DNA from: Patescibacteria group bacterium
GTDB taxonomy: Bacteria > Patescibacteriota > Minisyncoccia > UBA6257 > 1-14-0-10-40-38
NCBI GenBank assembly: GCA_038064975.1
Contig: JBBTRX010000002.1
Coordinates: forward strand, 128,880 to 192,879
Direction: 5' to 3'
Length of the DNA stretch: 64,000 nucleotides
Shown here one piece after another: positions 44,555 to 62,413 of this stretch (position 1 is the stretch's first letter; the number at the start of each line of letters is the position of its first letter). The translations under genes and the position numbers were made by a program. The notes beneath the pieces were generated by a model that was not told where the DNA came from, did not search any database, and saw only the letters and a list, made by a program, of their open reading frames with translations.

Positions 44555-44629
44555 GGTGCCTGTAGCTTAATGGTAAAGCTCCGCTCTGTGGCAGCGGCGA
44601 CGTGGGTCCGATTCCCATCAGGCACCCCA
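44555..44629 (+). tRNA. tRNA-His (anticodon GTG) with G-1 and encoded CCA
   Basis: GGTGCCTGTAGCTTAATGGTAAAGCTCCGCTCTGTGGCAGCGGCGACGTGGGTCCGATTCCCATCAGGCACCCCA. Acceptor stem GTGCCTG/CAGGCAC with an extra 5' G. Confidence 0.8.
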
Positions 44630-46096
44630 TTTGTGAGTTTCGTGCGCTTTTATGATCCCAGCGAACACAGGTTTCATTGTAAATACTGGCGTTCTCGCAT
44701 TTAGTACCGAGTTCTGAAGTACGAAATTCAAAAATACTCGTTTTTCCTGCGGTTCAGAACTTTCGAAGATTTCAAAAGCGCGCTTACAAATATCAAGCAA
44801 TCTGCTCGCTGTAAGGTGATATTCCTTATCTGCTGAGCTATGTTCTTGCATCTGCTGTAATAAATCTGCCTGTTTCGCTTTATACTCTTTCAATTTCTTG
44901 TCGTACATTTCGGGAGTAATACTGCCATCGTACTTGTCATCAGTCATTTTGCTGATCCGGCTCTCTATGCGGTCATACTCCGTTTTAAGACCGTCCATCG
45001 CGTTACTGTGAAATTCTTGCTCGGCTTCAGTGCTTACGCGTAAGCCACTTACTACGTAGTCAATTCCCTCTTTCGGCAGTCTAAGCTTCTTTATATGGGC
45101 GTAAATGGGCTTTAATAGTTCTTCTTCGGGTACATAGAGTTTTTGGCACTTACCTCGGTAGTTGGTGCAGTGATAGTAGATATACTTACCCTTGCTGATT
45201 TCTGGTGTAATAGTGCAACCGCATACGCCGCATGTCATAAGCCCTCGGAAAATGAAGGGCTTAGCGGCATGCTGAAACGGCTTCTTATTCCAGCTCTCAC
45301 AAACTTTTTGACATTTCAAGAAGAGACTCATCGAAATAAGTGACTCATAATGGTGCGGGTACTGTTTACCTTTCACATCCATCACGCCGTAGTAGAATCG
45401 AGTTTTGAGGATCATGGCGAGTCTACTCATGGCAATCGGGTTGCCATTCCTACTCCCTTTAAATCCTTCTTCTCTCATTCGCTTTGATAGCGTGATTAGC
45501 GAAAAGTTGCCGGTTGAATAGAGTTCGAAAGCTTTAATAACAAATGGTGCTGTTTTTGGATCAACTTCAATCGCTGATTTGTTCTCACTGGTTCTCGTGT
45601 TCAAGTATCCAATCGGGGCTTTAGCAATCCATTCGCCGTTTTTTAATTTCTGTTCATTGCTACGTTTCACGTTGTCGCTCAATTGCAAAACATAGCTGCG
45701 AGCAAACATAACGGCCATATCCCATTGCAAAAGCTGTGAGCTGTTGGCACTTGCCGTTAAAACCAAATTTTCTCGCACAAAGTGAATTTCGATTTTGCCT
45801 TGTTTTCGTAAATCATCTAAAACCACGCTTTCTTTAAAACTTCTTTGAAGGCGATCTACAGTTTCAACCACAAGGGCAATCGGTTCGCCGAATTTTGATT
45901 GCTTAATAACATCTAGGACTGCTTCAAATTTCTTTCGGCTATCCGTTGTCGAACTTTCTGCTATCTCAAAGACTTTCCAAAAATCGAGTTCTCTTTTCTC
46001 GACATATTCGGTAAGTCGCCTTGTTTGCGCTGATATGGATTGGCCCTCTTCGGCTTGTTCCTTTGTTGAAACTCTGGAAAGAATTATCGCCTTCAT
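44618..46096 (-). CDS. large serine recombinase (resolvase/invertase N-terminal domain plus recombinase and zinc-ribbon domains)
   Basis: N-terminal catalytic ILSRVSTKEQ (Ser nucleophile), a central recombinase domain and a C-terminal Cys cluster (CGVCGC...HC). 492 aa. Confidence 0.8.
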   Translation of the reverse strand: MKAIILSRVSTKEQAEEGQSISAQTRRLTEYVEKRELDFWKVFEIAESSTTDSRKKFEAVLDVIKQSKFGEPIALVVETVDRLQRSFKESVVLDDLRKQGKIEIHFVRENLVLTASANSSQLLQWDMAVMFARSYVLQLSDNVKRSNEQKLKNGEWIAKAPIGYLNTRTSENKSAIEVDPKTAPFVIKAFELYSTGNFSLITLSKRMREEGFKGSRNGNPIAMSRLAMILKTRFYYGVMDVKGKQYPHHYESLISMSLFLKCQKVCESWNKKPFQHAAKPFIFRGLMTCGVCGCTITPEISKGKYIYYHCTNYRGKCQKLYVPEEELLKPIYAHIKKLRLPKEGIDYVVSGLRVSTEAEQEFHSNAMDGLKTEYDRIESRISKMTDDKYDGSITPEMYDKKLKEYKAKQADLLQQMQEHSSADKEYHLTASRLLDICKRAFEIFESSEPQEKRVFLNFVLQNSVLNARTPVFTMKPVFAGIIKAHETHKWGA

Positions 46097-48702
46097 ATTT
46101 TCAATTTTTCTCTAAAGACCTTATCAAATTCCTGCTTAGTGGTTGCTTCGTTATAAAACGGAAGCCCAATAAGTTTTAGCCTACCTCTCTCAAATAAGGT
46201 TCTAATCTCAAATTCCGATTCTATTTCCTTTAGAAAATCTTCTTTCCATTTATCCTCAATCAACCCTCTATTGCCTTTTGGTTCGACAAAGAGCTGGTAT
46301 GACAAGGCCTTCTTGCCACCCTTTTCTTTTAGAAACAGGACAAAATCCGGCTCGATTGCTTGCCCATCGCTAAAACGATAGATTTTAAACAGACGTTCGT
46401 TCCTCAATAAATAAACATCTCGGTATTTTTTGCGTAATTCATCCATAGCCTGTCGTACGAACTGGATCAAATACTTTTCTTCAGAAGTCCCATAATTTTC
46501 GTCATACATGTACCAGTCTTGCGTGCTCAAATCGAGCCTCAACTCATCATTCAAGGTTTCGCTCATTGCCTTACCAAATTCAGCATCCTCACCTCTTATT
46601 AAGAATTCTAAAGTTTTTGTTTTGGCTAATATCTTAACTTTTTCGCCATGAAATTCTTTAGTTCCAATATATTCTTTATTACCTGCCTGAATTTTTTCTG
46701 CTAGCTCCTTCAAGACGTTTAGGGCAATATCAAATTTGTCGTAATTAGTTAGAGCATCCAGTCTACCGTTTTTTGCATACACTTCAATTTCAACTAATCC
46801 AGTAAAGTCTTTTGACGTAATAAATTCATCAATGGATTTCAAGTTTGGGAAAAAGAAACGCAAACTTACAAAACGATAAAAATCAATCTTATCTGCGGCT
46901 TTTCTTAAAATATGTTTTTCAATGTTATTTAGTTTGATCGTTTTCTTCTTAAGTTCCTCGGTTATGAGTGAGTCGGATTGATCGTCAAAAACACCGGATT
47001 CGGAAGATTGCCCACTTTTTATTTTATGCTTAAAAAGCGTATCTTGAATTATATCTTTTAAATTCTTTACGCTGGAATAATCTTTTTTTATCTGTTTATT
47101 AAGAAAAATTAGGCCGTCATTCCAAAAAGGTGTTTTAGTAATGTCATTCTTTATGGAAACAGTCTTATTTATTCGATTGTCCGGCGTAATACCAATGTTA
47201 ACTAATTCATTCCGCAATTCGGCAATGTATCGAGAATCGGTCAGGCTGTGATAATGTAACTCTTCTAAGACTCGCAATTCACTATTTAAATCCTTGTCAT
47301 ATTTACGTTTGTCTTTCTCTTCTTGAGCCTCCGTTGAAAACGGGAAATATCTTGCGCCTCGGCCTATGAGTTGTGCTTCAGATATGGTTATACTTCCGGC
47401 CTTACCGTATTTAGCGTCCCTTGTTTCGTAAAGTCGTACGATGTCAAACAAATTCAAAACATCCCAACCCTCGTTGAGCATATTCGTTGTAAAAATAGCT
47501 CTGGTTTCGTTGTTGTAGTCTTCTAAGGTATTTACCGTGATCTGTTTTGCTTCGCTGTCGGCTTTGCTGTTTATGATTAAGCATTTTTCCTTAGCAAAAT
47601 CTTCCTGAATTTCTTTTATTAAATGTGTTGGACTAATTTTGTTGGCTTTAAAAAAATCAACGGCTTGTTTCATTATTCCTCCTACATTACTTCTCTGTAT
47701 TCTAACCATATCTTCGGAATTTAAACCCTTGATCATCTTGTAAAATTCCTGTTCAAATTCTTCAGAATCCTTTATTTGTCTAGACTTGAACAAGATCACC
47801 GGCTTGAGCTGAATTTTGTATTTCTCGGCCACTTTGCGGCGATACTGGCTCAATATCACGGCCTGCAAAGCCCTGCTTCGTACTTCTAAATCAGATTGTA
47901 GCAACTGCACATCTTTAGAGTAACCATCCTCCCTAAAGCTTTTTAAAGCATATTGATAGATGATTTTATCGGCATATTTTTTAGCTACGGCCGGATGGCT
48001 AAGCTCGATGGTCGCCGTATATTCGAGTAGTATATTTTGGCTATTAGCTTTGAAAATTCTATCTACTGTTCTTTCCCAGCTAGTCGCTTCTTCTTGTTCT
48101 TCTTTATCTAATTTTGACTTTGTTAGAGTATTTATATGGTGCGCCTCATCCGATAAAAAAACTACTTTCAGATTTTTGAAATCTTCATATGTGATTGAAT
48201 TTTCCTGCGGTGTATTTAATTTACTGTGCAAGCCTTGAATAGTCGTAAAAAGTATATTTATGTTGTCTGTGTTTGTGGCTTCAAAATTCTCAACGTCCTT
48301 AATCTCAATTTCTCTATCGTAAAAAGTAATTTTTTCAGCAAAAAGATATTTACTAGAGGCCTTATCCAAAAAATTACTTTTGGTTTTTTGTATTATATTC
48401 GTACTGTTCACAAAAAAGATAAAATTTCGATAACCTATGGAATATGAATATAAAATGTCAGCTGCCATTAAAAGGGTTTTGCCGCTACCAGTTGCCATAT
48501 GAAAAAGCAGATGAGCTGGAGCTTTCCGGCCTTCATAGGTAGCTAAATAATACCGAAAACGGGCTATAGCTTCTTTTTGATATTCCCGTATGGAGAATTT
48601 CGGATTCAGATTCTTTGAAACAAAATCAGGCACGTCTTTCGCAATGACCTTTTGTTTGGAAAGAATATTTAACTCATCTACTAGCTTGATACTAGTTTCC
48701 AT
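46093..48702 (-). CDS. res: Type III restriction enzyme Res subunit (SF2 helicase-nuclease)
   Basis: Helicase motif I MATGSGKT and motif II LSDEAHH. 869 aa, immediately downstream of the DPPY methyltransferase, overlapping it by 11 nt. Confidence 0.75.
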   Translation of the reverse strand: METSIKLVDELNILSKQKVIAKDVPDFVSKNLNPKFSIREYQKEAIARFRYYLATYEGRKAPAHLLFHMATGSGKTLLMAADILYSYSIGYRNFIFFVNSTNIIQKTKSNFLDKASSKYLFAEKITFYDREIEIKDVENFEATNTDNINILFTTIQGLHSKLNTPQENSITYEDFKNLKVVFLSDEAHHINTLTKSKLDKEEQEEATSWERTVDRIFKANSQNILLEYTATIELSHPAVAKKYADKIIYQYALKSFREDGYSKDVQLLQSDLEVRSRALQAVILSQYRRKVAEKYKIQLKPVILFKSRQIKDSEEFEQEFYKMIKGLNSEDMVRIQRSNVGGIMKQAVDFFKANKISPTHLIKEIQEDFAKEKCLIINSKADSEAKQITVNTLEDYNNETRAIFTTNMLNEGWDVLNLFDIVRLYETRDAKYGKAGSITISEAQLIGRGARYFPFSTEAQEEKDKRKYDKDLNSELRVLEELHYHSLTDSRYIAELRNELVNIGITPDNRINKTVSIKNDITKTPFWNDGLIFLNKQIKKDYSSVKNLKDIIQDTLFKHKIKSGQSSESGVFDDQSDSLITEELKKKTIKLNNIEKHILRKAADKIDFYRFVSLRFFFPNLKSIDEFITSKDFTGLVEIEVYAKNGRLDALTNYDKFDIALNVLKELAEKIQAGNKEYIGTKEFHGEKVKILAKTKTLEFLIRGEDAEFGKAMSETLNDELRLDLSTQDWYMYDENYGTSEEKYLIQFVRQAMDELRKKYRDVYLLRNERLFKIYRFSDGQAIEPDFVLFLKEKGGKKALSYQLFVEPKGNRGLIEDKWKEDFLKEIESEFEIRTLFERGRLKLIGLPFYNEATTKQEFDKVFREKLKI

Positions 48703-50392
48703 AGAACGCTTTGTTTATTTTCTTTTTTTCTGCGGGAACTTTATATGTAGCGTCTTCCATTTCGCTATAGTTCACATATAGATGGTTTTTATCCAAACTT
48801 TCAATCAATATCTGCTTCTGATCTTTTAACTCAAGCTCGCCGAATTTCTTTTCATCGAATTTATTTAGGTCTATTTCGTATCTGAAAAATGCCTCCATTT
48901 GCATTTTTTTATAGATATTCAATAACTCTTTGCTCGTCTTACCTCCTCTAATTGCCTGCTCATATTCTTCATTCCATTTCTTAAGTTCCATATAAACGAA
49001 CGATCCGCCGCCTTTCCAATGAACTGCTTTAGAAATTCCGGCCTGATCGCCCTTAACCACTTCTTTTAGGCGTGCAACACTGCCATTATCACCATAATCC
49101 AGTTGCTCGATGCCAATATATTGCCTACCCATTTTATGGGCTACGGCGGCTGTCGTACCACTACCTAAGTGGTAATCTAAAACAATATCTCCCTCATCGG
49201 TCGCCGATTTTATAATTCTCTCCAATAAATTTTCTGGTTTTTGCCCACTAAAATCCTTGATTCTTTCTTTCGCAGTAGCGGCTTGTTGAAATGAAATTAT
49301 ATCACCCCAAACATCACCTATGGCCTTCCCTCTCTCAATAACTTCGTCCAAATAAATCTTTTCGCCCCTTCCGTCAAAATACATTCTTCCAGTTTTCTCA
49401 TCTTTTTTATTAAATCTCGCGAGATATTTTTCGCTATGTTCAGTTTTTACTTTATTAAACTTAAGTGATTTATTATTTTTTGAATAAAACAATATTGAAT
49501 CATGTCCTCTAATCCAATTATTGGCAATTGTTTTATATCCTGACAAAACTGAAATATCCCAAATTATTTCTCTTTGGAAATTCTCTTTGCCGAAAATATC
49601 GTCCATTAAAACCTTACAATAGTGAACCTCATTGTAATCTAATTGAATATAAATACTTCCATCATCTCTTAATAATTGTCGTGCGACCTCTAACCTATTT
49701 TTCATGAAAGTCAGCCAAGTGGAATGATTGAAGCTATCATTGTAATTAAATCCATCCCCGTTGCCGGTATTGTATGGCGGATCAATGTATATGAGTTTAA
49801 CTTCACCTCTATACTTCTTTTTTAGCGAGTGTAAGGCCAAAAGATTATTACCTTTTATTATTAGATTATCCTGCTCGGTTATCCGTTCAATTTCATGTTC
49901 TCCTGTTTTGTCTATTTTCTTTATATTTGTTAACACTTTTGGTTCAAATAGCCGATCAATTTCGTCTGGCGCAAGAATTTCATTATAAAAAATTTCATTT
50001 CGTTTTGAATCTTCTTTGTCTTGCCCGCCCTCCAAAACACAATCTTTATATGGCCAAGCTAAAACCACTTTGCCGCTGTCCTTCAGATAATCATCATTCT
50101 CAACCAATCCAATATGATTTTTAAAAGCAGTAAAAGAATTCGGTAAAAATTCTTTGTTGTTTATGAATCTTACAAATTTATCCTGATTAAAAACAAAAAC
50201 TGCCTTAGTATTTATTTTGCTCTCTGTAAAAAAATGCTCTTTGGTTAGACCATTATTCAGTAATAATTCTAAGAGTTCTTTATCCTGCTTTATCGCCAAT
50301 TCAGTGATCTTGTTCTTTAAGATTTTTCCTTCAGCAAACAATCGTTCGTCTTTTTTTAAAATTTTAGCTAAATCGTTGAATAAATTTTGCAT
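48692..50392 (-). CDS. mod: Type III R-M Mod subunit (N6-adenine/N4-cytosine beta-class DNA methyltransferase)
   Basis: Catalytic IYIDPPYN before the SAM motif DYHLGSGTTAAVA (beta-class motif order). 566 aa. Confidence 0.8.
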   Translation of the reverse strand: MQNLFNDLAKILKKDERLFAEGKILKNKITELAIKQDKELLELLLNNGLTKEHFFTESKINTKAVFVFNQDKFVRFINNKEFLPNSFTAFKNHIGLVENDDYLKDSGKVVLAWPYKDCVLEGGQDKEDSKRNEIFYNEILAPDEIDRLFEPKVLTNIKKIDKTGEHEIERITEQDNLIIKGNNLLALHSLKKKYRGEVKLIYIDPPYNTGNGDGFNYNDSFNHSTWLTFMKNRLEVARQLLRDDGSIYIQLDYNEVHYCKVLMDDIFGKENFQREIIWDISVLSGYKTIANNWIRGHDSILFYSKNNKSLKFNKVKTEHSEKYLARFNKKDEKTGRMYFDGRGEKIYLDEVIERGKAIGDVWGDIISFQQAATAKERIKDFSGQKPENLLERIIKSATDEGDIVLDYHLGSGTTAAVAHKMGRQYIGIEQLDYGDNGSVARLKEVVKGDQAGISKAVHWKGGGSFVYMELKKWNEEYEQAIRGGKTSKELLNIYKKMQMEAFFRYEIDLNKFDEKKFGELELKDQKQILIESLDKNHLYVNYSEMEDATYKVPAEKKKINKAFYGN

Positions 50393-50393
50393 A

Positions 50394-50600
50394 TTATTTG
50401 GTTTGAGTTTTATTTAAAAACTGCTCAAATTCTGCCTGATCAATTCTAAACTCCTTACCAATCTTATGCGCCTTCAGCTTGCCCGATCTTATATTTCGAT
50501 AAATGGTTACTACGTCTAACTTGAGAATTGTGGCTAACTCCTTAGCTGTGTAAAACCTTTCTTGCTTCATACTCTTATGATACTGGACTATTGTATACAT
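50394..50600 (-). CDS. helix-turn-helix DNA-binding protein (excisionase/MerR-like)
   Basis: 68 aa with YTAKELATILKLDVVTIYRNIRSGKL, matching the HTH_17/Xis signature. Confidence 0.6.
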   Translation of the reverse strand: MYTIVQYHKSMKQERFYTAKELATILKLDVVTIYRNIRSGKLKAHKIGKEFRIDQAEFEQFLNKTQTK

Positions 50601-50616
50601 TGCCAGCGCATAGCCT

Positions 50617-55220: not shown

Positions 55221-55246
55221 GCTTTCCAATGTTTAGTGGAGAGTAG

Positions 55247-55334: not shown

Positions 55335-55387
55335 ATTACTGCGCCACTAGGAGTGGTATAAAGTTTGGTAGTGTAATCACCATTCAT
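55298..55387 (-). pseudogene. orphan copy of RHS C-terminal tail coding fragment (MNGDYTTKLYTTPSGAVIDW...) fused to repeat copy A
   Basis: Minus-strand mini-ORF MNGDYTTKLYTTPSGAVIDWRPYWMCLEP. Its first 20 aa are identical to residues near the RHS C-terminus, and the end reads into the 85-bp repeat. Confidence 0.4.
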
Positions 55388-55405
55388 TACTATATTTTAA
55401 TATCA

Positions 55406-55678: not shown

Positions 55679-55690
55679 AAAATTTAATAA

Positions 55691-55759
55691 TTAGTTTGTA
55701 GATCCTGAGATAATATTACCCCACCAATCTATAACTGCCCCGGTTAGTGATGATTCGGT
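55691..55759 (-). pseudogene. orphan RHS C-terminal tail fragment (TESSLTGAVIDWWGNIISGSTN*) directly after paralog-1 stop
   Basis: In frame after the TAA of 55760-56029, it encodes ...GAVIDWWGNIISGSTN, matching the RHS C-terminus ...GAVIDWWGNIISGPKN. The underlying motif is CCCCACCAATCTAT(A/C)ACTGCCCC. Confidence 0.4.
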
Positions 55760-56029
55760 TTATTTTTTTAAATATTCCAAAAATATTCTTATTATAAAGA
55801 AAAAAGTTATTAGCAAAAGAATTGAAGATATTAAATATATAGGCAATTCATATCCTGCAGAAAAATTAGAAAAGGTACGTAATATATATTTAGTCACATT
55901 TAGGATGATAAAACCTATACCTACCCAACCAAGCCAAAAAAAATCTTTTCCTTGTTTTTTTGACCATGCGTAAAAACAAATACTCGTTCCTACTAAATAA
56001 AAAATTATATAGAAAATTATTGAATTCAT
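55760..56029 (-). CDS. small 3-TM membrane protein, immunity-like (paralog 1)
   Basis: 89 aa with three hydrophobic helices, 12 nt downstream of the RHS stop. Confidence 0.5.
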   Translation of the reverse strand: MNSIIFYIIFYLVGTSICFYAWSKKQGKDFFWLGWVGIGFIILNVTKYILRTFSNFSAGYELPIYLISSILLLITFFFIIRIFLEYLKK

Positions 56030-56041
56030 AAATATTAAAGA

Positions 56042-59000
56042 TTAATTTTTTGGTCCTGAAATGATGTTGCCCCACCAATCTATCACTGCCCCACTAGGAG
56101 TGGTATAAAGTTTAGTAGTGTAATCGCCGTTCATCATTATATTTTGTTGATTTGTATTATTTTGAGCGTTCCCTTGAGGAGTTTGAGTTCCTTCCTTAAA
56201 ATTTTGTATTCCCTCATTAAATTTCTTATAATCTTCAATCTGTTGAGCTATTGCTGGGCAAGCAACGCTACACACAGCGCCTATAATCTTCCATAAAGGC
56301 CACTTTGGATCAAATTTTGGAGGTTCATTGTTAAAAATTTTTGCCTGTTCAGGACCCCTCACAAGTCGACTCTGTTCAAATGGTCTCTGACTCAATCCAT
56401 CATTGTTTCGAAGTAGTGCCGCAGTACCGACCACAAGCGCACCGACACCCACAACGGCTACGCCTATCAAGAATGCTTGAGGTGCTACAAAGAAGACTGG
56501 CAATGCGAAAGGAATGGCAATTTCACCATCTGGGTCAATTAGATTTATCGGATTATTTTTTACGTAAGAGTATGAATTTAAGCTCTGGGGATCGCTAAGC
56601 ACGCTCTCTAAAGATTGGCCATATCTATCTTCAAAGTTTATATCACCGATCGCAAGATACGATGGATCTTCACTTAAAAACCTTCCCCAATTAGTATTCA
56701 AATACCTCGCTTTCGCATACGTATAGTCTAGAGCATCTGCATCGTATTCGTGTCCAGTATACTTCCTTTTTTCAATCGTTGTACCAACATCATTCTTGAG
56801 TGATCCAAACGCAGTGTACCCCACTTCTTCCGTAATGTTAGCAGAGTCATCGGTTACTAACGATGTTGAACGGAGATGATCGGAGCTATTCCATAGGATA
56901 GTAGGATCTCCTGTCCCTATGACCACCGTAGCTACCGGTATGCCGTTTACAAAGATATGTTCTGTGGTTGTGGCACTTCCTTCTTCGTTAAAGTAGATAG
57001 ATGGGTATGTGGTCGTGGCAAGGTTTGTTACGTGGGAATAAACCCTTTGGCCGCTTGTATCATATCCATACGTTGCATATTTTGTTTGTTGCCCAGGTCC
57101 TCCGAAGGATTGAGAGGAGAATCCTCCAGTTTGTTGAGATGGGAGTTTGATTTTTACTAATCTATTATTCCAATCCCAGGTGTGGGTAAGATTGCCGGTA
57201 CGATTTACGAGATTACCGTTTTTGTCGTAGGTCAAGGTTTCTGCGCCTACCCTCGTAGCCGCATGTGGGTTTGCAAAATTAGCTGTAGTTGTCCCTTGAT
57301 ACCAATACACGCCTTCGGGAGAAGTGAGGATATTACCAACGGGAGTGTAGGTGAAAATTTCAGAAAAGATGTTTGTAGACGAAGCGTTTACGGTTGAGCT
57401 TGCGAGACGATAGAGACTGTCGTATTCATAATCGGTCACACGATTCGGCAATGTTGCCGTGTCAGAAAAGACAGCGATTTTTGTAATATTCCCAACAGCA
57501 TCATAGGTATAGAGAAATTGCTGGAGCGTATTACTTCCATCATCTATGATTTTCCTTTTCAGACGATAGAGTTCATTCTCATCATAGGCATTCTCTATCG
57601 TTGTGCCATTCGCGTTTGTTTGGAACGTCACGTCCCCAGTCGGCGCATAGTCAAAATCAGAAACAATCGTAGTAGTCGCTACCCCACTTTCTTTCCAGTA
57701 CACCGCTTCAGGATGCCCTGCATTGTTGTATTCGTACGTAATCAAGGCATCATTCGGATTCTTGATCGTGAGCGGGTTACCAAGATAGTCGTAGGTATAA
57801 TCCGTAAGATATACATTACCGTCTATTATTTTGGTTTCCTTACCGATATTCCCCGCATAGTCATAGCGGTTGTTCAAAACCATCTTTCCCGCCGTAATAG
57901 TTGTTGTCGTTGCGATACAGAGGCGACCCACACCTTGGGAGCAGGCGTCGTAAGTGTATTCTGCTTCCAAACCCGACGTAAGCGATGCGTTTTCGCTTGT
58001 TATTCTGTTTAATGTGTCATATGCGTACGTTACGGTAGAAAAATCTGGTTTCTTTTTTTCCGTAAGATTACCGGCAAAGTCATACGCGTACGTTGTTGTT
58101 CCAAAATAAATATCGGATAGTTCATGCATATCTTCGGCAAAGGTTCTCCTCCCAAGCATGTCATATTCAAAATTGCGGACATTACCTTCAGCATCGATGA
58201 TTTTTATGAGGTTACCGAGAGTATCGTATTCATAGCGAGTGACATACGGAGAGGTTGTGGCATATTCATCCACACGATTCAGACGCCCAAAAGCATCGCG
58301 ACTAAAAACTTTTTTATTATTGTTTGAATCGGTAGTAGTGGCGTACCAGTTGTCGTATGTTGTTGCCGTATCACCAAACACCTGATCAACGTTCACTACT
58401 CTATCCAATGCATCGTATGTATATGAAGCATACAGCGAAGCAGTTGTTGTCGCAGATGTTTTATTTACGCCAGAACTGAAATACGGCAATGACTCTTTTT
58501 CTACACGACCTTGTTCGTCATATACCGTGTCTTGTACCGCATAGATTGTGCCACCATTATCCTCTGCGCGAGAGCGGGTCTGGATAGCACGCCCGAAGCC
58601 GTCAAAGTATGTTTTTATATCAGTTGAAAGAGCGGGTAAAAGATTGTTCGTTTCTTGAACAGCATATTGATTTGCTGTGTCGGTATAGGTAATAGTCTTT
58701 ATCGTTACGAGTGCACCTGTAAGAGGGTCGGGAGATTTTTGGGTCTTTATGCGATCCAGTGAATCATAGACGGTTTCATATATTTCTCCATTGGGAGTAA
58801 TAGTCTGCGTAGGTTGCCCAGAAGAATAGTCATACAAGCGTTCCGTCTCGTGGCCTAAAGCATTTGTTGTCGTTTCTGGATAAAGATTTAATGAGTCATA
58901 TACGTACGTTGTTTCGTTGTAGTTTGGATCACGATCGGAGAGCATAAGTCCAAAACTGTTATACACATGCGTAGTAGAGGCATAGGTTGTGCCTTCTATC

Positions 59001-62000
59001 AAAAATTCTTTTTTAGTTGGATTGCCCACTGATACTTCGCCAAACGATAAATCGTCGTATGTTATCTTTTGATCTGCAACAGTAGTATTGGCATAATCTT
59101 TAACGGTTTGTTGTGATAATAACTTTATATAATCCGTACTACTTTCTGCATAATCATAGTCGGTGGTACGAACATCATCCCCTATGTCGCTAAAGGTTAA
59201 TGGATCAGATGCGGTTACTTCACCCCATTCTTTTTCTTGAGTAAGATTTCCTGTTGTAGTTGCAAATGAAAAAGTTTTTGCCACGTCTCTATGCGTTCCA
59301 TTCCCGTCATAAGTCTCTGTGATAATTTGCGATGGATATACTAAAAAAGCAGTGTCAATGGAAGTTGTTGCTGCATTCCATTTCGTAGTTGTTCGTGTCA
59401 TCAAATTTCCATTTGAATCCAAGCGATCTATGCGATAAGCTTTTCCGATTTTTGCATGATGATCTAAATCTTCATACAACGTTGTACTCGCGGTGTCACC
59501 TTGATGGAAATAGGTTATCTCCTCAGTTCCATCTGGTTTGATCTTGGTAACGGTTTCAAAACCTGCAAACCTGCGATCGAAAGAGTCTTTGAAGAAATAA
59601 TGTCCACCTGCATAACTATATGTTGTTGTACTGACCGTACCCGTCACTGAGTCTGTCTCTCCCACCGCTTGAATTGTCTGAGTAGTAAAGGGAAGTTCTG
59701 GATTTAAGAGATTACCCCCTGCGTCTTTGTATTGAGATGAAGCCTCATATGAGGTTGTTATGACGCCACCCGTAGGAAGAGTAATTTTTGAAAGTAAGTC
59801 TGGGGTGTTGCCAGTATTGAAGAAAATATCAGCAACACAATCAGGATTGCAAACGCTGTGAATAATATCTAGAAGTCCATCGCCATTAATATCACCAACC
59901 TGGCGAACAATAGTATCGCTTGATATTCCAACTTGTAAATCTCCTGCATTAAGATAGTGATCCCATCGATGAAGAAATATTTTACCAATACTTGAAAACA
60001 TATCGGGAAGATCATCGCCGTTCATATCAGCAATAAACGTTCCCGTGGGTCCGGTTGTAAAATCTTCAAACATATTCGAATCCCCTGATCGTAAATTTGT
60101 AAACCCTGAATCATATGTGAAGCCAGTAGAAGAAGTCACTACTGAAGACGTTGCTCCTTGGTTGATATATATTTTTGCATCATATGAACCACCAAATGTT
60201 TTAAGCGCCCTAAAAATATCAGTCAATCCATCGTGGTTCATATCAACTGCACGAATACCAAGTTGATCCGGTACTTCAGATGGCATCGTAAAGAAAGAAA
60301 AATCGATTCCATTATTTCGATCTATTTCAAATGGGAGAGGACCAATAGTACGAAGTCGATCGAAAAGTCCATCGCCATTTATATCTCCTACCATGGGACG
60401 ATCAAGACTATCAGGATCAAGCTTCGGCACAGCACCAGTCCAGGAAGAGTCATACTGCCAATTTGTACCACTATTTATATGAACTTCTGACGTAAATGGG
60501 GGTGATACAGGGCCATAGACGTAATCACTTTCTGCATCACCATTAATATCCGCAACAATCGTACCATCTGCGTTACAAAAACTTCCTGCATCCAATCGCG
60601 TGCAAATTCGAATAAGCACAACACCACCTTGTTTGTGTGGTATTTGCCAACTTGTGGATGTAGCAAATGTATTATCGTGTTGATTAATCCAAACATATTC
60701 TTTGTCAATGGTTGATGGATTCTCAATACGAGTTGATTGCAAGACATCAGCATAACCATCACCATCTACATCGGTAACAATGACGCCATTAGTATAATCA
60801 AGACTTCTAATCGTTATATCTGCTGTGCTTGAAGCAAACGAGAAATTACTCGAGGTATATTGAAAATTTGTAGTAAGTTCAATAAGAGTTCCAAAAGGAT
60901 CGCCCTGATCTCGGATAGAACTGACACGTGAACGCCCTGTAAGAGAATTGTCATCGTAAGTAACGACATAGCGTCGCACTAAAACACCATTTTCTCTAAT
61001 ATCGATATTATTTAAGCGGTTCCTTGTTTCAACTTTAAATCCAGCAAAATAAGACTTTTGATCATCCTGTCTTCCAACCCAACCAAAACTGATTGAAAAG
61101 ATTGGAGTAGTGGTTGCTGGAGCGTCTGTGTACGCATATTCAATTTTAGATGGATATATTTGACCTTGATTAGCGGTATAGGTATATAAAATCTCATTAC
61201 CGTTTGCGTCTTTTATTCGATCAAGCATCCATTTGTATCCGGTTGAAGTTGCGTAGGGAGAAGCAATGCGCGTAGTTGAAGCACTCCCAAAAAAATACAT
61301 TACACCATCCTTAGTCTCGACCTTCCAATGATCATCTTCCGTTGAAGAAGTGGTGTATGTATATTTATTAAAAGCACCAGTATCTGTTTTTGCTATGAAT
61401 TGATCATTTGAAATATACGCGAGAGATCCATCAAGAGATGATAAGAAACTCTCGTATGGAGTATCATACATTCGTTCGTTTCCATATTTATTCTCACGAA
61501 TAATATAAGGAACATCGAGATTCCATCCATATCCAATATAGGTACCATCTGAACGATCCTGTGAGTTATATACTATCGCAAGATCAGGAGTAAAATCATT
61601 GCGACCAGGAGGTAGTTGAATTGGATAGCGGTATACATATGCGCCCGAAGAAAGATTAGCCTGTGGTTTTATTTGCCGTATTGTGTTTATGGGCTGAACC
61701 GTTGAGTATGGAATGTCTGAGGCAGATTTTGTAGTCCCGCGACTATCTCCCGAATTACTACTTCCGCCAGAAGACCTTTCTTCAACGCTTGGCATTGCCG
61801 CAGTTCGAGAAGAAACGTTTGCCACATTGCCGGATATATCTGAATCAGTACTAATCGTATCTGTAGTATTACTATTATCTAAAGACGGCACATCAATAGA
61901 AAACGCCGATTTTTGAATCGGCGCCTGTATTACTTCGGGAGATGCATCAATAATTTGACCAAATATCTGAGAAGGAAAAACCAAAGAAAAAGCGGTTATT

Positions 62001-62065
62001 CCTACGAGGAAGGAGGTACTTATTCTACTCATCCGTTTATTTAACCTCTTCATATTTTTCTTCAT
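56042..62065 (-). CDS. RHS/YD-repeat polymorphic toxin (2007 aa) with N-terminal signal peptide, FG-GAP-like repeats, RHS core and C-terminal variable toxin domain
   Basis: Many YD repeats (YTYDALDRV, YEYDTLGNL, YAYDTLNRI, YTYDAVGNI, YEYDSLYRL), an RHS core ending in LIDPDGE, N-terminal D-x-[DN]-G-D-G repeats (DVDGDGYADV, GDINGDGLFD), and an about 170-aa C-terminal region containing a hydrophobic segment. Confidence 0.85.
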   Translation of the reverse strand: MKKNMKRLNKRMSRISTSFLVGITAFSLVFPSQIFGQIIDASPEVIQAPIQKSAFSIDVPSLDNSNTTDTISTDSDISGNVANVSSRTAAMPSVEERSSGGSSNSGDSRGTTKSASDIPYSTVQPINTIRQIKPQANLSSGAYVYRYPIQLPPGRNDFTPDLAIVYNSQDRSDGTYIGYGWNLDVPYIIRENKYGNERMYDTPYESFLSSLDGSLAYISNDQFIAKTDTGAFNKYTYTTSSTEDDHWKVETKDGVMYFFGSASTTRIASPYATSTGYKWMLDRIKDANGNEILYTYTANQGQIYPSKIEYAYTDAPATTTPIFSISFGWVGRQDDQKSYFAGFKVETRNRLNNIDIRENGVLVRRYVVTYDDNSLTGRSRVSSIRDQGDPFGTLIELTTNFQYTSSNFSFASSTADITIRSLDYTNGVIVTDVDGDGYADVLQSTRIENPSTIDKEYVWINQHDNTFATSTSWQIPHKQGGVVLIRICTRLDAGSFCNADGTIVADINGDAESDYVYGPVSPPFTSEVHINSGTNWQYDSSWTGAVPKLDPDSLDRPMVGDINGDGLFDRLRTIGPLPFEIDRNNGIDFSFFTMPSEVPDQLGIRAVDMNHDGLTDIFRALKTFGGSYDAKIYINQGATSSVVTSSTGFTYDSGFTNLRSGDSNMFEDFTTGPTGTFIADMNGDDLPDMFSSIGKIFLHRWDHYLNAGDLQVGISSDTIVRQVGDINGDGLLDIIHSVCNPDCVADIFFNTGNTPDLLSKITLPTGGVITTSYEASSQYKDAGGNLLNPELPFTTQTIQAVGETDSVTGTVSTTTYSYAGGHYFFKDSFDRRFAGFETVTKIKPDGTEEITYFHQGDTASTTLYEDLDHHAKIGKAYRIDRLDSNGNLMTRTTTKWNAATTSIDTAFLVYPSQIITETYDGNGTHRDVAKTFSFATTTGNLTQEKEWGEVTASDPLTFSDIGDDVRTTDYDYAESSTDYIKLLSQQTVKDYANTTVADQKITYDDLSFGEVSVGNPTKKEFLIEGTTYASTTHVYNSFGLMLSDRDPNYNETTYVYDSLNLYPETTTNALGHETERLYDYSSGQPTQTITPNGEIYETVYDSLDRIKTQKSPDPLTGALVTIKTITYTDTANQYAVQETNNLLPALSTDIKTYFDGFGRAIQTRSRAEDNGGTIYAVQDTVYDEQGRVEKESLPYFSSGVNKTSATTTASLYASYTYDALDRVVNVDQVFGDTATTYDNWYATTTDSNNNKKVFSRDAFGRLNRVDEYATTSPYVTRYEYDTLGNLIKIIDAEGNVRNFEYDMLGRRTFAEDMHELSDIYFGTTTYAYDFAGNLTEKKKPDFSTVTYAYDTLNRITSENASLTSGLEAEYTYDACSQGVGRLCIATTTTITAGKMVLNNRYDYAGNIGKETKIIDGNVYLTDYTYDYLGNPLTIKNPNDALITYEYNNAGHPEAVYWKESGVATTTIVSDFDYAPTGDVTFQTNANGTTIENAYDENELYRLKRKIIDDGSNTLQQFLYTYDAVGNITKIAVFSDTATLPNRVTDYEYDSLYRLASSTVNASSTNIFSEIFTYTPVGNILTSPEGVYWYQGTTTANFANPHAATRVGAETLTYDKNGNLVNRTGNLTHTWDWNNRLVKIKLPSQQTGGFSSQSFGGPGQQTKYATYGYDTSGQRVYSHVTNLATTTYPSIYFNEEGSATTTEHIFVNGIPVATVVIGTGDPTILWNSSDHLRSTSLVTDDSANITEEVGYTAFGSLKNDVGTTIEKRKYTGHEYDADALDYTYAKARYLNTNWGRFLSEDPSYLAIGDINFEDRYGQSLESVLSDPQSLNSYSYVKNNPINLIDPDGEIAIPFALPVFFVAPQAFLIGVAVVGVGALVVGTAALLRNNDGLSQRPFEQSRLVRGPEQAKIFNNEPPKFDPKWPLWKIIGAVCSVACPAIAQQIEDYKKFNEGIQNFKEGTQTPQGNAQNNTNQQNIMMNGDYTTKLYTTPSGAVIDWWGNIISGPKN

Positions 62066-62195
62066 TATCGCAAACCCAATTCCCCTCTGTCAATTAAGAT
62101 TGTCAATCCTCAAAACAATAAAGAGTGTTAAGGGTATGGTGAAATAATCCTTTATTCTAAATTAAGTCATAGGTTTAGCGGAGAATAGATACATG

Positions 62196-62278
62196 TGGAA
62201 CTTCAAGAAAATTCAAATCCTCGCTTATTTTCTTCCAATCTACGGTTCTAAACACATCCAGTAAGGCACCCACAGAAA
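62196..62278. repeat. about 85-bp direct repeat, copy B (upstream of RHS gene)
   Basis: Matches copy A. It lies about 140 nt upstream of the RHS start codon. Confidence 0.55.
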
Positions 62279-62394
62279 TAAAAACGACCTGGTTTATCCC
62301 GGTCATTTTTATTTCTATAGAGATGCTTAATGGCGTGTCGGATCGCGGGCCGCAGACCCCGAAGAGGGGTCGAAGGTTTCGAGGTCAGTAGGCC

Positions 62395-62413
62395 GAGAGG
62401 CGATTCCCATCAG
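62395..62413 (+). repeat. 19-nt duplicate of tRNA-His 3' end (putative attR of island)
   Basis: CGATTCCCATCAGGCACCC is identical to 44607-44625 within tRNA-His. Confidence 0.55.

What the first reader, a model, noticed from the sequence alone, without database searches (positions are those of the whole stretch)
44555..62413. Integrated island at tRNA-His bounded by a 19-nt direct repeat, carrying recombinase, Type III R-M, a defence-like module and an RHS toxin
- The tRNA-His 3' end CGATTCCCATCAGGCACCC is exactly duplicated 17.8 kb away at 62395-62413.
- A large serine recombinase starts next to the tRNA.
- All island genes are on the minus strand and more AT-rich than the flanking housekeeping genes.
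- The cargo (mod-res, HTH/Xis-like, Rep-like, SpoVG, AAA ATPase pair, RHS toxin) is typical of integrative and mobilisable elements.

Such elements are rarely characterised in reduced, CPR-like genomes.
Basis: partly seen in the sequence, partly recalled or inferred. Interest (0 to 1): 0.7.

Follow-up and report, generated by a model that had tools for sequence, protein, structure and literature searches.

The report
Split-recombinase integrative plasmid at tRNA-His
The island is real, but it is a stack of mobile DNA at a tRNA-His gene whose core is a roughly 10.7-kb integrating mini-plasmid, one of a large and apparently undescribed family in ultra-small (Patescibacteria) bacteria whose serine recombinase gene is cut, losing its last ~29 codons, each time the element inserts into a tRNA gene.

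Summary
None are expected by chance, and there is no second tRNA-like gene there. The gene calls are mostly right: LSR, Type III R-M, Xis-like HTH, SpoVG, AAA_14, RHS.

The 19-nt repeat is probably not the recombinase's site pair. Relatives show a large Patescibacteria family of 8.5-10.8-kb elements: LSR, HTH_17, a Rep_trans-like rolling-circle initiator, usually SpoVG, and variable defence cargo. They sit at the extreme 3' end of tRNA-Asn, -His, -Gln, -Arg or -Ile.

The LSR gene spans attP. One complete 9,734-bp circle, assembled in two samples, and one circularly permuted ~10.8-kb contig carry a longer LSR with a conserved tail (LLDxFRTxDW..I..EL). In integrated copies this tail exon lies at the far end of the element, in frame.

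The window has two tail exons, at 55233-55322 and 62175-62264. The locus therefore reads as a canonical 10.7-kb element, then a 6.9-kb RHS toxin module ending in a second, family-typical attR, then a 127-nt remnant, then the 19-nt tRNA fragment.

No empty site or excised form of this exact element was found. The function of the tail is inferred.

The parts
44556..44629 (+). tRNA-His(gtg), the integration target. Its last ~10 nt, including an encoded CCA, are supplied by the element (attL).
   Evidence: ARAGORN, Rfam at 63 bits and the sequence itself.
44609..44627 (+). The 19-nt repeat, copy 1, inside the tRNA. The 8-nt AGGCACCC at 44620-44627 is the core shared with the family-typical attR at 62264-62271.
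44618..46096 (-). Large serine recombinase in its integrated, truncated form (492 aa, ending ...HETHKWGA*). The stop codon is antisense within the tRNA acceptor stem.
   Evidence: Pfam PF00239, PF07508 and PF13408. Invariant R8 and S10. Sequence read.
46093..48702 (-). Type III restriction subunit (Res); variable cargo.
   Evidence: Pfam ResIII. PADLOC REase_III, E 2e-131.
48692..50392 (-). Type III methyltransferase (Mod).
   Evidence: Pfam N6_N4_Mtase and TypeIII_RM_meth. PADLOC MTase_III, E 2e-180.
50394..50600 (-). HTH_17 / excisionase-like DNA-binding protein. A family backbone gene and the candidate recombination directionality factor or regulator.
   Evidence: Pfam HTH_17. PHROG excisionase families. 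Conserved in about 25 related loci.
50617..51732 (-). A 371-aa Rep_trans-like rolling-circle initiator, or a MOBT-like relaxase. A family backbone gene.
51759..52019 (-). SpoVG-like protein, a frequent backbone gene.
   Evidence: Pfam SpoVG. Conserved in about a dozen related loci.
52000..52179 (-). A 59-aa conserved small protein of unknown function.
   Evidence: Called in L019. Conserved in about ten related loci.
52227..53405 (-). A 392-aa conserved protein of unknown function, with no family hit. No P-loop or transmembrane segment is seen on reading the sequence.
   Evidence: Homologues at 26-34% identity in related elements.
53418..54857 (-). AAA_14 + DUF4143 ATPase, a candidate single-gene defence system. 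Cargo unique to this element.
   Evidence: Pfam. PADLOC PDC-S01, E 2e-32. Absent from the other family loci.
55233..55322 (-). LSR tail exon, copy 1 (LLDVFRTVDWKKISEDLSFLEVSHTSTLH*), the terminus of the canonical 10.7-kb element. The junction at 55322-55331 is aberrant: its core reads GGCGGCCT and it abuts an RHS orphan.
   Evidence: 100-nt repeat D1, 90% identical. Translations. Span of 10,702 nt.
55325..55398 (-). Orphan copy of the RHS C-terminal tail (MNGDYTTKLYTTPSGAVIDW...), truncated at the junction with tail exon 1.
   Evidence: Repeat D3, 89% identical to 56072-56145. Sequence.
55406..55678 (-). A 90-aa hydrophobic protein, inferred to be an RHS immunity protein.
   Evidence: ORF list and sequence. 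The role is inferred from its position after a toxin tail.
55675..55741 (-). A second orphan RHS tail fragment.
   Evidence: Repeat D4, 81% identical to 56026-56092.
55760..56029 (-). An 89-aa hydrophobic protein, inferred to be the cognate RHS immunity protein.
   Evidence: the role is inferred.
56042..62065 (-). A 2007-aa RHS/YD polymorphic toxin with SpvB, FG-GAP, TcdB_midN, RHS repeats and Rhs_assc_core (1750-1847). A 160-aa C-terminal tip follows, with hydrophobic stretches seen on reading.
   Evidence: Pfam, NCBIfam and the sequence.
62175..62264 (-). LSR tail exon, copy 2 (LLDVFRTVDWKKISEDLNFLEVPHVSILR*). With the core AGGCACCC at 62264-62271 it forms the family-typical attR.
   Evidence: The exact 8-nt core lies 17,644 nt from attL.
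62274..62316 (+). A long hairpin directly after a tRNA-His 3'-end remnant (GGCACCC-ACA). It looks like the tRNA terminator that was in place when the outer element integrated.
   Evidence: Fold of -18.0 kcal/mol, z -6.0. The same arrangement is seen in L100, L126 and L084.
62317..62400 (+). An 84-nt G+C-rich remnant of unknown origin ('X').
   Evidence: No Rfam family. No homologue in the held loci. Fold z of only -2.5.
62401..62419 (+). The 19-nt displaced tRNA-His 3' fragment, the outer boundary of the whole array.
62427..62454 (+). A hairpin followed by TTTTAATTTT, probably the original terminator of the tRNA-Phe/His unit.
   Evidence: Fold of -17.9 kcal/mol, z -2.7. The simple terminator scan did not call it, because the stem is bulged.

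Best explanation
The region is an array of mobile DNA that has accreted at the 3' end of tRNA-His in a groundwater Patescibacteria genome.

**The canonical element.** The tRNA-proximal 10.7 kb (44.63-55.33 kb) is a complete member of a large family of small (8.5-10.8 kb) integrative elements. The family backbone is a Rep_trans-like rolling-circle initiator, an HTH_17 protein and a large serine recombinase. SpoVG, a 59-aa protein and a 392-aa protein are frequent. Defence cargo is variable: here it is a Type III R-M and an AAA_14/DUF4143 ATPase.

**The split recombinase gene.** The element's attP lies inside the 3' end of the recombinase gene. In the free circle the LSR is about 520 aa and ends in a conserved tail of roughly 27-29 aa (LLDxFRTxDW..I..EL). 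Recombination takes place within a few nucleotides of the discriminator/CCA end of a tRNA gene. It joins the LSR body to the tRNA, giving a 492-aa protein whose stop codon is antisense in the acceptor stem, while the element supplies a new tRNA 3' end with an encoded CCA. It also moves the tail exon to the opposite end of the element. Excision rebuilds the full-length gene.

**The rest of the array.** Beyond the first tail exon lies a 6.9-kb RHS toxin/immunity module. It ends in a second tail exon with an intact, family-typical attR: an 8-nt core followed by a terminator hairpin. Most likely this is what remains of a second, older tandem element whose recombinase-proximal half was deleted. Beyond that lie a 127-nt remnant and the 19-nt tRNA-His fragment, left by a still older insertion of another kind.

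**Shown versus inferred.** Shown here: the architecture, the free circular relatives, the tRNA targeting and the in-frame split gene. Inferred: that the tail exchange changes LSR activity, for example full activity for integration only in the free form and a stabilised integrated state, as proposed for Mx8 IntP/IntX. Also inferred: that HTH_17 acts as the directionality factor, that Rep replicates the circle, and the order of the insertions.

**What the confidence covers.** The figure of 0.75 applies to the architecture and family assignment. I put the tail-as-switch hypothesis at about 0.35.
For: **Free forms exist.**
- L045 (ENA) has a 141-nt exact terminal overlap. L046 (JGI, an independent sample) is the same 9,734-bp circle at 100% identity.
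- That circle has no tRNA. Its LSR (78% identical to the window's) reads ...HQTRKW-LPLLVAFRTIDWRALSTEMAQMSFT*.
- L051 (LSR 77% identical, 10,682 nt) is circularly permuted. LSR residues 1-411 lie at one contig end. Residues 460-492 lie at the other, fused to ...NWGA-LRDVFRTVDWEEM.... Its size matches the window's 10,702-nt unit.

**tRNA targeting.**
- Of 80 JGI loci, 45 LSR genes overlap the 3' end of a called antisense tRNA: Asn 31, His 11, and Gln, Arg and Ile 1 each.
- The closest relatives do the same in tRNA-His (L024-L027) and tRNA-Gln (L028, L044).
- Relatives at 34-37% identity lie at tRNA-Leu and tRNA-Glu.

**The split gene.**
- In 11 integrated loci the tail motif lies 8.5-10.7 kb upstream on the same strand.
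- By my reading of the translations, the tail frame lines up with the LSR end at the spacing seen in free forms (F = W+7). One or both of the residues at F-7/F-6 are shared, except at the window's attR1, which shares neither.
- The automatic core finder confirmed the frame in seven of eleven junctions and picked spurious short matches in the rest. Exact shared cores include L100 TTGGCTCC, L028 GTGGCTG, L084 TATGGGT and window GGGTGCCT.

**The tail is coding.**
- F, T and W are invariant, and R is invariant but for one G; F and T show third-position wobble.
- Differences by codon position 1/2/3 are 355/199/394 and 480/411/692.
- Among L095, L100 and L119, 7-8 codon differences are synonymous against 3-5 nonsynonymous.
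- Nine of 120 database homologues carry the motif.

**Backbone and cargo.**
- p371, HTH_17, SpoVG, p59 and p392 recur across loci. RHS and AAA_14 are found only here.

**Composite structure.**
- A 100-nt repeat (55231-55330 and 62173-62272, 90% identical) covers the tail exon almost exactly.
- attR2 is followed by a hairpin, as in L100, L126 and L084.
- L102 shows an LSR followed by another tail-like exon, consistent with tandem arrays in this family.
- Both parts are compositionally foreign.
Against: - No empty tRNA-His site and no excised form of this exact element was found. All contigs carrying the identical LSR or RNR show the integrated state. The predicted attP and attB/attR junctions are absent from the collections that could be scanned. 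The right-flank gene has no close relative.
- The crossover dinucleotide is not determined, and no clear dyad symmetry was found in the attP sites.
- Conservation of the first ~26 nt of the tail exon could partly reflect its role as the P half-site of attP rather than peptide function; for example, Arg is always AGA.
- The AF2 model gives the tail only about pLDDT 60 and no informative contacts.
- The A/B junction does not look like a simple tandem attP-type junction. A deletion has to be assumed.
- p371 does not reach the Pfam thresholds and has no plasmid homologue in PLSDB. It could be a relaxase rather than a replicase.
Confidence: 0.75

Rival explanations
1. A single 17.8-kb island moves as one unit, and the 19-nt direct repeat is the recombinase's common core, so the attL and attR crossover lies within it.
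For: The 19-nt identity is exact and not due to chance. It brackets every foreign gene. The outer copy is followed by a terminator-like hairpin, as expected for the original tRNA end. Both halves of the interval are compositionally foreign.
Against: In eleven related integrated elements, and in the free attP sites, the identity between attP and attB is only about 5-10 nt and does not extend into the T-loop. A complete family-typical attR, made of an 8-nt core, a tail exon and a hairpin, lies 129 nt inside the 19-nt copy. Excision at the 19-mer would not rebuild the conserved full-length LSR ORF, because the stop codon lies inside the repeat. Free relatives are 9.7-10.8 kb, not 17.8 kb.
Confidence: 0.1
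2. The functional element today is the whole 17.6-kb unit from attL to attR2, with RHS as genuine cargo. The inner tail exon (copy 1) is merely an internal duplication left by recombination between two related elements.
For: attR2 has the exact 8-nt core and a family-typical flank. attR1 has 2-3 core mismatches and is the only junction whose F-7/F-6 residues do not match the LSR end (my reading; cores). Both tail ORFs are intact.
Against: RHS is not found in any other family locus. The other complete elements are 8.5-10.8 kb. The inner unit of 10,702 nt matches the free relative L051 in size and gene order.
Confidence: 0.3
3. The element is a decayed, immobile relic. The recombinase no longer excises it, and the genes are simply retained as defence and toxin cargo.
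For: Only integrated copies are seen, in all seven contigs from several Hainich samples. The locus carries rearrangement scars: orphan RHS tails, a duplicated terminus and the X remnant.
Against: The LSR ORF is intact with its catalytic residues. Both tail exons are open. Rep, HTH and the other backbone genes are full length and 59-100% identical to those of free circles.
Confidence: 0.2
4. The family consists of small ssDNA (inovirus-like) prophages or phage satellites rather than plasmid-like elements.
For: Three members of the Rep family weakly match Phage_CRI, the inovirus gpII N-terminal domain. GenBank holds two distant relatives labelled 'Bacteriophage sp.'. Inoviruses using serine recombinases and infecting CPR hosts have been proposed (PMC6813254).
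Against: No Zot/pI-type morphogenesis ATPase, coat-like or other virion protein family was detected in any island ORF by Pfam, PHROGs or NCBIfam. On reading its sequence, p392 has no P-loop or transmembrane segment. The IMG/VR scan with the LSR found nothing. The two GenBank 'phage' records are unverified, unannotated scaffolds in which the LSR abuts a tRNA, so they are integrated copies.
Confidence: 0.08

Closest known systems
Myxococcus phage Mx8 IntP/IntX, where attP lies inside the integrase gene and the target is a tRNA gene
   Same: The integrase ORF extends across attP, so integration rewrites the recombinase's C-terminus and excision restores it (Tojo et al. 1996, cited in PMC4383910). 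That the target is the 3' end of a tRNA gene is from memory. The regulatory idea, from memory of Magrini et al. 1999, is that the prophage form is less active.
   Different: Mx8 Int is a tyrosine recombinase and this is a large serine recombinase. Mx8 is a 49-kb tailed phage, whereas these are 9-11-kb elements with a rolling-circle Rep and no virion genes. Here the swapped part is a short conserved tail of roughly 27-29 aa.
SSV-type ('suicidal') integrases of archaeal viruses and plasmids
   Same: attP lies within the integrase ORF, and integration splits the gene (PMC7253208; PMC4383910). That the target is a tRNA gene and that the elements are small circular replicons is from memory.
   Different: These are archaeal tyrosine recombinases. 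The split falls mid-gene and inactivates the enzyme. Here only the extreme C-terminus is exchanged and the catalytic, DNA-binding and coiled-coil domains stay intact.
Classical serine integrases and LSR elements (phiC31, Bxb1, A118, CcrAB of SCCmec)
   Same: The domain architecture is Resolvase, Recombinase and Zn ribbon with a coiled coil. The nearest curated family is CcrB. Short att sites with little attP/attB identity are expected.
   Different: The targets of those enzymes are protein-coding genes or intergenic sites. [quoted passage not shown] The 6,207-LSR survey of Durrant et al. does not mention tRNA in its main text (PMC10083194). None is described with attP inside its own gene. The score against CcrB is 67 bits, against a cut-off of 900.
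Tycheposons and other tRNA-associated small integrative elements with replication genes (Prochlorococcus)
   Same: [quoted passage not shown] A minority (27 of 937) carry an LSR (10.1101/2020.12.28.424599).
   Different: They occur in a different host phylum, mostly use tyrosine recombinases, and have different replication proteins. No split recombinase gene is reported in the text read.
Integrative and mobilisable elements of Firmicutes with a serine recombinase plus a Rep_trans/MOBT protein
   Same: An LSR is combined with a Rep_trans-fold protein in a small integrated element. The Rep_trans fold is shown. The link between MOBT relaxases and Rep_trans is from memory and from the review PMC5704250, which was listed but not read.
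   Different: No conjugative helper is known in Patescibacteria. The target sites and the split gene also differ. Whether p371 acts as a replicase or a relaxase was not tested.
Integration-dependent immunity of cluster G/P mycobacteriophages
   Same: attP lies inside a regulatory gene, so integration truncates the product and changes its activity (abstract of PMC4557955).
   Different: There the truncated gene is the repressor, the integrase is a tyrosine recombinase, and the removed tail is a degradation tag (the last two points from memory). Here it is the recombinase itself, and the tail's function is unknown.

Membership tests
tRNA-gene genomic island (Islander-type signature) | An intact tRNA gene at one end. 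| tested here: met
   tRNA-His at 44556-44629.
tRNA-gene genomic island (Islander-type signature) | A displaced tRNA 3' fragment in direct orientation at the other end. | tested here: met
   An exact 19-nt copy at 62401-62419. In addition, an 8-nt remnant at 62264-71.
tRNA-gene genomic island (Islander-type signature) | An integrase gene inside the island; in the classical definition, a tyrosine recombinase. | tested here: not met
   An integrase is present next to the tRNA, but it is a serine recombinase. No tyrosine recombinase was found in the island ORFs.
tRNA-gene genomic island (Islander-type signature) | An empty site in related genomes. | not testable with these tools
   No close relative lacking the island is held.
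Large serine recombinase / serine integrase | An N-terminal resolvase catalytic domain with a Ser nucleophile. | tested here: met
   PF00239 at E 2.8e-15. R8 and S10 are invariant in 27 sequences.
Large serine recombinase / serine integrase | A Recombinase domain, a zinc ribbon and a coiled coil. | tested here: met
   PF07508 and PF13408. Long helices at 346-425 in the model of P0004.
Large serine recombinase / serine integrase | Short att sites with imperfect dyad symmetry around a 2-bp crossover. | tested here: inconclusive
   The shared cores are 5-10 nt. The symmetry scan gave no consistent centre.
Large serine recombinase / serine integrase | Demonstrated attP x attB recombination. | not testable with these tools
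   This needs an experiment. The support here is indirect: free circles and integrated copies of close relatives.
attP-within-integrase-gene systems (Mx8 IntP/IntX, SSV-type) | The recombinase ORF extends across attP, and integration alters or splits it. | tested here: met
   Continuous ORFs in free forms. The tail exon lies at the far end, in frame, in integrated forms.
attP-within-integrase-gene systems (Mx8 IntP/IntX, SSV-type) | A tyrosine recombinase. | tested here: not met
   The domains are those of a serine recombinase. The system works like these families but is not a member.
Rep_trans (pT181-type) rolling-circle initiators (p371) | The Rep_trans fold. | tested here: met
Rep_trans (pT181-type) rolling-circle initiators (p371) | A sequence match above the Pfam threshold. 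| tested here: not met
   No family for the window protein at E<=0.01. Among 44 homologues, Rep_trans matches once (E 0.096) and Phage_CRI three times (best E 4.3e-5).
Rep_trans (pT181-type) rolling-circle initiators (p371) | A catalytic Tyr, and a double-strand origin or nick site. | tested here: inconclusive
   Y180 (YDK) and E221/R223 are invariant and resemble the RepC motifs as I recall them. No residue-level superposition was made, and no origin was sought.
Type III restriction-modification | Adjacent Mod (N6/N4 MTase with the TypeIII_RM_meth domain) and Res (ResIII helicase-nuclease) genes. | tested here: met
RHS/YD polymorphic toxin | YD/RHS repeats and an Rhs-associated core, followed by a variable C-terminal tip and a downstream immunity gene. 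| tested here: met
   RHS_repeat, YD_repeat_2x and Rhs_assc_core at 1750-1847. A 160-aa tip. Two small hydrophobic ORFs and orphan tails. Immunity is inferred.
Inovirus (rival) | A pI/Zot-like morphogenesis ATPase and coat proteins. | tested here: not met
   No such family was found in any island ORF. On reading its sequence, p392 lacks a P-loop.

The most novel reading that the evidence does not exclude
Patescibacteria harbour a very large, undescribed family of self-replicating (rolling-circle) integrative mini-plasmids, driven by the first clade of large serine recombinases that is specific for tRNA genes. In these elements the recombination event itself edits the recombinase. The free form carries a conserved C-terminal peptide that is removed on integration and restored on excision. 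This gives a built-in, factor-independent memory of integration state that biases directionality or stability. Because close LSR relatives (74-79% identical) have switched between tRNA-His, tRNA-Gln and tRNA-Asn, the family would also be a natural series of retargeted serine integrases, and a ready-made vector and integration toolkit for the largely genetically intractable CPR bacteria.
Probability: 0.35. Interest if true: 0.8.

Novelty: new variant of a known kind. Interest (0 to 1): 0.66.

Why it matters
**For mobile-element biology.** tRNA-gene targeting has been treated as a hallmark of tyrosine integrases. A large clade of serine integrases doing the same, with its own gene straddling attP, shows convergent evolution of the Mx8/SSV 'self-editing integrase' design in the other recombinase superfamily. 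At least 468 loci were found in one metagenome collection, and 1,585 homologous proteins in the protein database.

**For Patescibacteria.** These reduced, episymbiotic bacteria have very few described plasmids or integrative elements. These 9-11-kb circles carry restriction-modification systems, toxin-antitoxin genes and candidate defence genes. They appear to be a main vehicle of defence-gene exchange in the group.

**For biotechnology.** Close relatives that target different tRNAs offer a natural experiment in LSR retargeting. They also offer candidate integration vectors for CPR bacteria.

**For annotation.** The recombinase gene is called with arbitrary C-termini that read into tRNA genes. 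Island finders keyed to long tRNA-fragment repeats and tyrosine integrases are likely to miss or mis-delimit these elements.

Tried and rejected
- **A second tRNA-like or other RNA gene at 62.3-62.4 kb.** Rejected. ARAGORN and Rfam, at gathering and at E<=10, find nothing credible. The 84-nt G+C-rich stretch folds only modestly better than shuffles, z -2.5.
- **Empty site or excised form of this element.** Nothing was found.
  - The identical RNR and LSR occur only on island-bearing contigs.
  - My first ORF boundaries were not on record.
  - The attB/attR 26-mer is absent from the JGI metagenomes.
  - The 19-mer and the predicted attP 27-mer are absent from IMG/VR.
  - GTDB relatives of the RNR (74% identity or less) are not syntenic on the tRNA-His side.
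  - The right-flank protein has no homologue above 42% identity.
- **Short Logan contigs ending just after the LSR (L020-L022).** L020 and L021 continue into tRNA-His, so they are attL, not attP.
- **Long direct repeats in relatives.** None is present. This is what led me to the short cores.
- **IMG/VR scan with the 16-mer TGGATGTGTTTAGAAC.** It gave 15 hits. None has an LSR or extended similarity, so they are chance matches.
- **Dyad symmetry of attP, to locate the crossover.** No consistent centre emerged.
- **Automatic longest-common-substring frame test.** It picked spurious short matches in four loci because the LSR window was set from the BLAST end. I relied instead on the codon-by-codon comparison and on the exact cores where they were unambiguous.
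- **p392.** No Pfam, PHROG, NCBIfam, PADLOC or PDB match.
- **The idea that the 371-aa ORF at 25339-26454 is a second Rep.** Rejected. It is DnaN.
- **Type-2 tail exons upstream of the tRNA-Asn 'NWLPG' clade.** None was found within 10 kb.
- **The AF2 model of the full-length LSR.** It did not reveal where the tail docks.

Full report
**1. The observation**

ARAGORN and Rfam place tRNA-Phe at 44411-44483 and tRNA-His(gtg) at 44556-44629 on the plus strand. The 19-mer CGATTCCCATCAGGCACCC covers part of the T-loop, the 3' T-stem, the acceptor strand, the discriminator and the first C of CCA. It occurs exactly twice, at 44609-44627 and 62401-62419, and no copy appeared in any of 100 shuffles. The identity stops at 19 nt.

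Nothing resembling a tRNA, tmRNA or other Rfam family lies at 62.3-62.4 kb, even at E<=10.

All large ORFs between 44.6 and 62.1 kb are on the minus strand. The region is compositionally foreign. GC is 0.37-0.39 against 0.438 for the rest of the window. The tetranucleotide distance to the host profile is 0.28, against 0.151 +/- 0.030 for host windows.

**2. Gene content**

| Coordinates (-) | Product |
|---|---|
| 44618-46096 | Large serine recombinase (Resolvase + Recombinase + Zn ribbon) |
| 46093-50392 | Type III Res and Mod |
| 50394-50600 | HTH_17 / excisionase-like |
| 50617-51732 | 371-aa protein, no family by sequence |
| 51759-52019 | SpoVG |
| 52000-52179 | 59-aa ORF |
| 52227-53405 | 392-aa protein of unknown function |
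| 53418-54857 | AAA_14 + DUF4143 (PADLOC candidate PDC-S01) |
| 55406-55678, 55760-56029 | Two small hydrophobic ORFs |
| 56042-62065 | 2007-aa RHS protein (SpvB, TcdB_midN, YD repeats, Rhs_assc_core 1750-1847, 160-aa tip) |

The flanks are housekeeping genes: RNR, a methyltransferase and tRNAs. The organism is a groundwater Patescibacterium. The same locus lies on a 228-kb Hainich contig.

**3. What the relatives show**

The LSR has more than 1,500 homologues, almost all unnamed proteins from metagenomes. I fetched the contigs of the closest ones.
- LSRs 74-76% identical end inside tRNA-His (L024-L027).
- LSRs 67-79% identical end inside tRNA-Gln (L028, L044).
- In each case the last codons of the LSR are antisense to the tRNA acceptor stem.

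A scan of JGI metagenomes with an LSR alignment returned 80 loci, out of at least 468 relatives. In 45 of them the LSR overlaps the 3' end of a called tRNA: Asn 31, His 11, and Gln, Arg and Ile 1 each. Two relatives at 34-37% identity, deposited in GenBank as 'Bacteriophage sp.', abut tRNA-Leu and tRNA-Glu.

The gene order p392, p59, SpoVG, p371 (Rep), HTH_17, variable R-M, LSR recurs across these loci. RHS and AAA_14 occur only in the window and its twin contig.

**4. The recombinase gene spans attP**

The relatives have no long direct repeat. The window, however, has a 100-nt repeat, 55231-55330 against 62173-62272, at 90% identity. Similar sequence lies at the LSR-distal end of L024 and L028.

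Read on the LSR strand, this repeat is an ORF: LLDVFRTVDWKKISEDL...*. It is preceded by a few nucleotides identical to the tRNA's 3' end. Joining it to the LSR at that shared core is in frame, giving ...HETHKWGA-LLDVFRTVDW....

The joined form exists in nature.
- L045 has a 141-nt terminal overlap. L046, an independent JGI assembly, is the same 9,734-bp circle. It has no tRNA, and its 519-aa LSR reads straight through...HQTRKW-LPLLVAFRTIDWRALSTEMAQMSFT*.
- L051 (LSR 77% identical, 10,682 nt) is a circularly permuted contig broken inside the LSR. Residues 460-492 are fused to ...NWGA-LRDVFRTVDWEEM...*.
- L115, L116 and L119, and nine of 120 database proteins, show the same tail.

In eleven integrated loci the tail exon lies 8.5-10.7 kb upstream on the same strand. 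By my reading of those translations, the frame and spacing match the free forms. The exact cores are short: TTGGCTCC, GTGGCTG, TATGGGT and, in the window, GGGTGCCT.

Codon-position statistics indicate that the tail is translated. F, T and W are invariant, and R is invariant but for one G; F and T show third-position wobble. Position 2 is the least variable. Among close relatives, synonymous codon differences outnumber nonsynonymous ones. Part of the conservation may also reflect recognition of the P arm at the DNA level.

The cores overlap at the last G of TGG, which is the complement of CCA, plus about 2 nt. The crossover is therefore probably at the discriminator/CCA end. The element supplies an encoded CCA, while the displaced host ends read CAC and CAA.

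**5. Anatomy of the window's locus**

The 8-nt core AGGCACCC occurs at 44620-44627 (attL) and again at 62264-62271, followed inward by tail exon 2 (62175-62264). Outward of it lies a strong hairpin, 62274-62316, with -18 kcal/mol and z -6. This is the arrangement seen at the attR of L100, L126 and L084: host terminator, then the tRNA remnant, then the tail exon. So 62264-62271 is a bona fide attR for this family, 17,644 nt from attL.

Tail exon 1 (55233-55322) lies 10,702 nt from attL. That is the size and gene order of the free relative L051. Its junction is aberrant, though. The core reads GGCGGCCT, and it abuts a truncated orphan copy of the RHS C-terminal tail. It is the only junction whose frame-aligned residues do not match the LSR end.

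Between the two tail exons lies the RHS gene. With it are two immunity-like ORFs, each preceded by an orphan tail fragment, which is a typical RHS toxin/immunity array. A good promoter-like site lies at 62064-62093.

Beyond attR2 come 127 nt with no homologue. The 19-nt tRNA-His fragment follows, and then a second terminator-like hairpin.

The most economical reading is serial accretion at the tRNA:
- first, an unknown element that left the 19-nt fragment and the remnant X;
- then an LSR-family element carrying RHS, of which only the distal 6.9 kb survives;
- then the present 10.7-kb element.

A contig in which an LSR is followed directly by another tail-like exon (L102) suggests that tandem arrays occur in this family. 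The alternative is that the 17.6-kb unit is today's element and tail exon 1 is an internal scar. That cannot be excluded.

**6. Mechanism**

Shown:
- the family exists both as circles and as integrated copies;
- it targets the extreme 3' ends of tRNA genes;
- the LSR ORF crosses attP, and integration exchanges its last ~27-29 residues.

Inferred:
- Rep_trans-type rolling-circle replication of the circle. A MOBT-like relaxase role is the alternative.
- HTH_17 as the directionality factor or regulator.
- The tail exchange modulating LSR activity. This is by analogy with Mx8 IntP/IntX and with integration-dependent immunity (PMC4383910; PMC4557955).

The AF2 model of the full-length LSR shows a canonical LSR plus two short tail helices at about pLDDT 60. 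That gives no further information.

**7. Comparison with what is known**

[quoted passage not shown] The 6,207-LSR survey of isolate genomes does not mention tRNA in its main text. Tycheposons include a minority with LSRs. SSV-type 'suicidal' integrases are tyrosine recombinases (PMC7253208).

My searches of the held library found no description of this family. That is absence of evidence within a limited library.

I class the finding as a new variant of known kinds. It is a tRNA-integrating element of known general type, with an unusual combination: a serine integrase, attP inside the integrase gene, a rolling-circle Rep, and a CPR host.

**8. Limits**

- No empty site and no excised form of this particular element was found.
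- The crossover position is not determined.
- The order of the insertions, the activity of attR1 against attR2, and the tail's function are all inferred.

Noticed in passing
window 44096-44430: An 82-aa GIY-YIG ORF (44172-44420, +) sits directly upstream of tRNA-Phe. It is preceded by a duplicated 5' fragment of tRNA-Phe. The 20 nt at 44096-44115 are identical to 44411-44430. A 36-nt hairpin-like insert follows, and then GAGCGTCC, which is again tRNA-Phe sequence. This looks like a second, tiny homing-endonuclease-type insertion at the 5' side of a tRNA gene. L028 also has a GIY-YIG ORF near its element.
   Followed up: partly
window 23754-26454: dnaA (23754-25142) and dnaN (25339-26454) lie here with an AT-rich spacer. 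GC is 0.33 at 25-27 kb, and the trough of the cumulative GC skew falls near 24-26 kb. This is probably the chromosomal origin, about 19 kb from the island. It explains the only other low-GC stretch in the window.
   Followed up: partly
window 55325-56145: This is an RHS 'orphan' array. The last ~35 codons of the RHS gene are repeated twice downstream (55675-55741 and 55325-55398). Each repeat is followed or preceded by a small paralogous membrane-protein gene. This suggests past swapping of toxin tips and immunity genes.
   Followed up: partly
L054, L067, L068, L083, L091, L102 (LSR 3' ends): There is a second kind of contiguous LSR tail: ...WLPRQN[DE][FY]R[TN]F[CY]M..E.EKV..KLEEV.. and ..VDEVRTYYM... 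It is found mainly in the tRNA-Asn clade. I could not find its separated exon within 10 kb upstream of integrated members. L083 has a type-1-like tail exon directly after the type-2 tail, and L102 has an LSR followed by a foreign tail. Both may be tandem arrays.
   Followed up: partly
L127 (MT837677.1) and L128 (MT836653.1): Two unannotated GenBank records labelled 'UNVERIFIED: Bacteriophage sp.', from human faeces, carry LSRs 34-37% identical to the window's. These LSRs run into tRNA-Leu(cag) and tRNA-Glu(ttc). They are probably integrated elements of this wider clade on chromosomal fragments, not phage genomes.
   Followed up: partly
L027 7942-11535: In this relative the LSR stands alone next to tRNA-His, with an IS (rve + HTH_Tnp_1) upstream and no backbone genes. 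The neighbouring tmRNA gene has its 3' end duplicated 194 nt downstream (8239-8266 against 8433-8460). This hints at another decayed island at the tmRNA.
   Followed up: no
window 44627-44629 against 62272-62274 and 62419-62422: The element-supplied tRNA-His 3' end encodes CCA, which is the complement of the LSR's conserved Trp codon. Both displaced host-type ends read CAC or CAA after the discriminator. Integration therefore converts a tRNA gene without an encoded CCA into one with it.
   Followed up: no
LSR relatives P0001-P0007, L047, L049: LSRs that are 74-85% identical to each other target three different tRNAs (His, Gln, Asn). Their last residues co-vary with the acceptor-stem sequence: ..KWGA, ..KWLR, ..NWLRR. 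This indicates rapid retargeting in which the protein's C-terminus and its own att site are the same DNA.
   Followed up: partly
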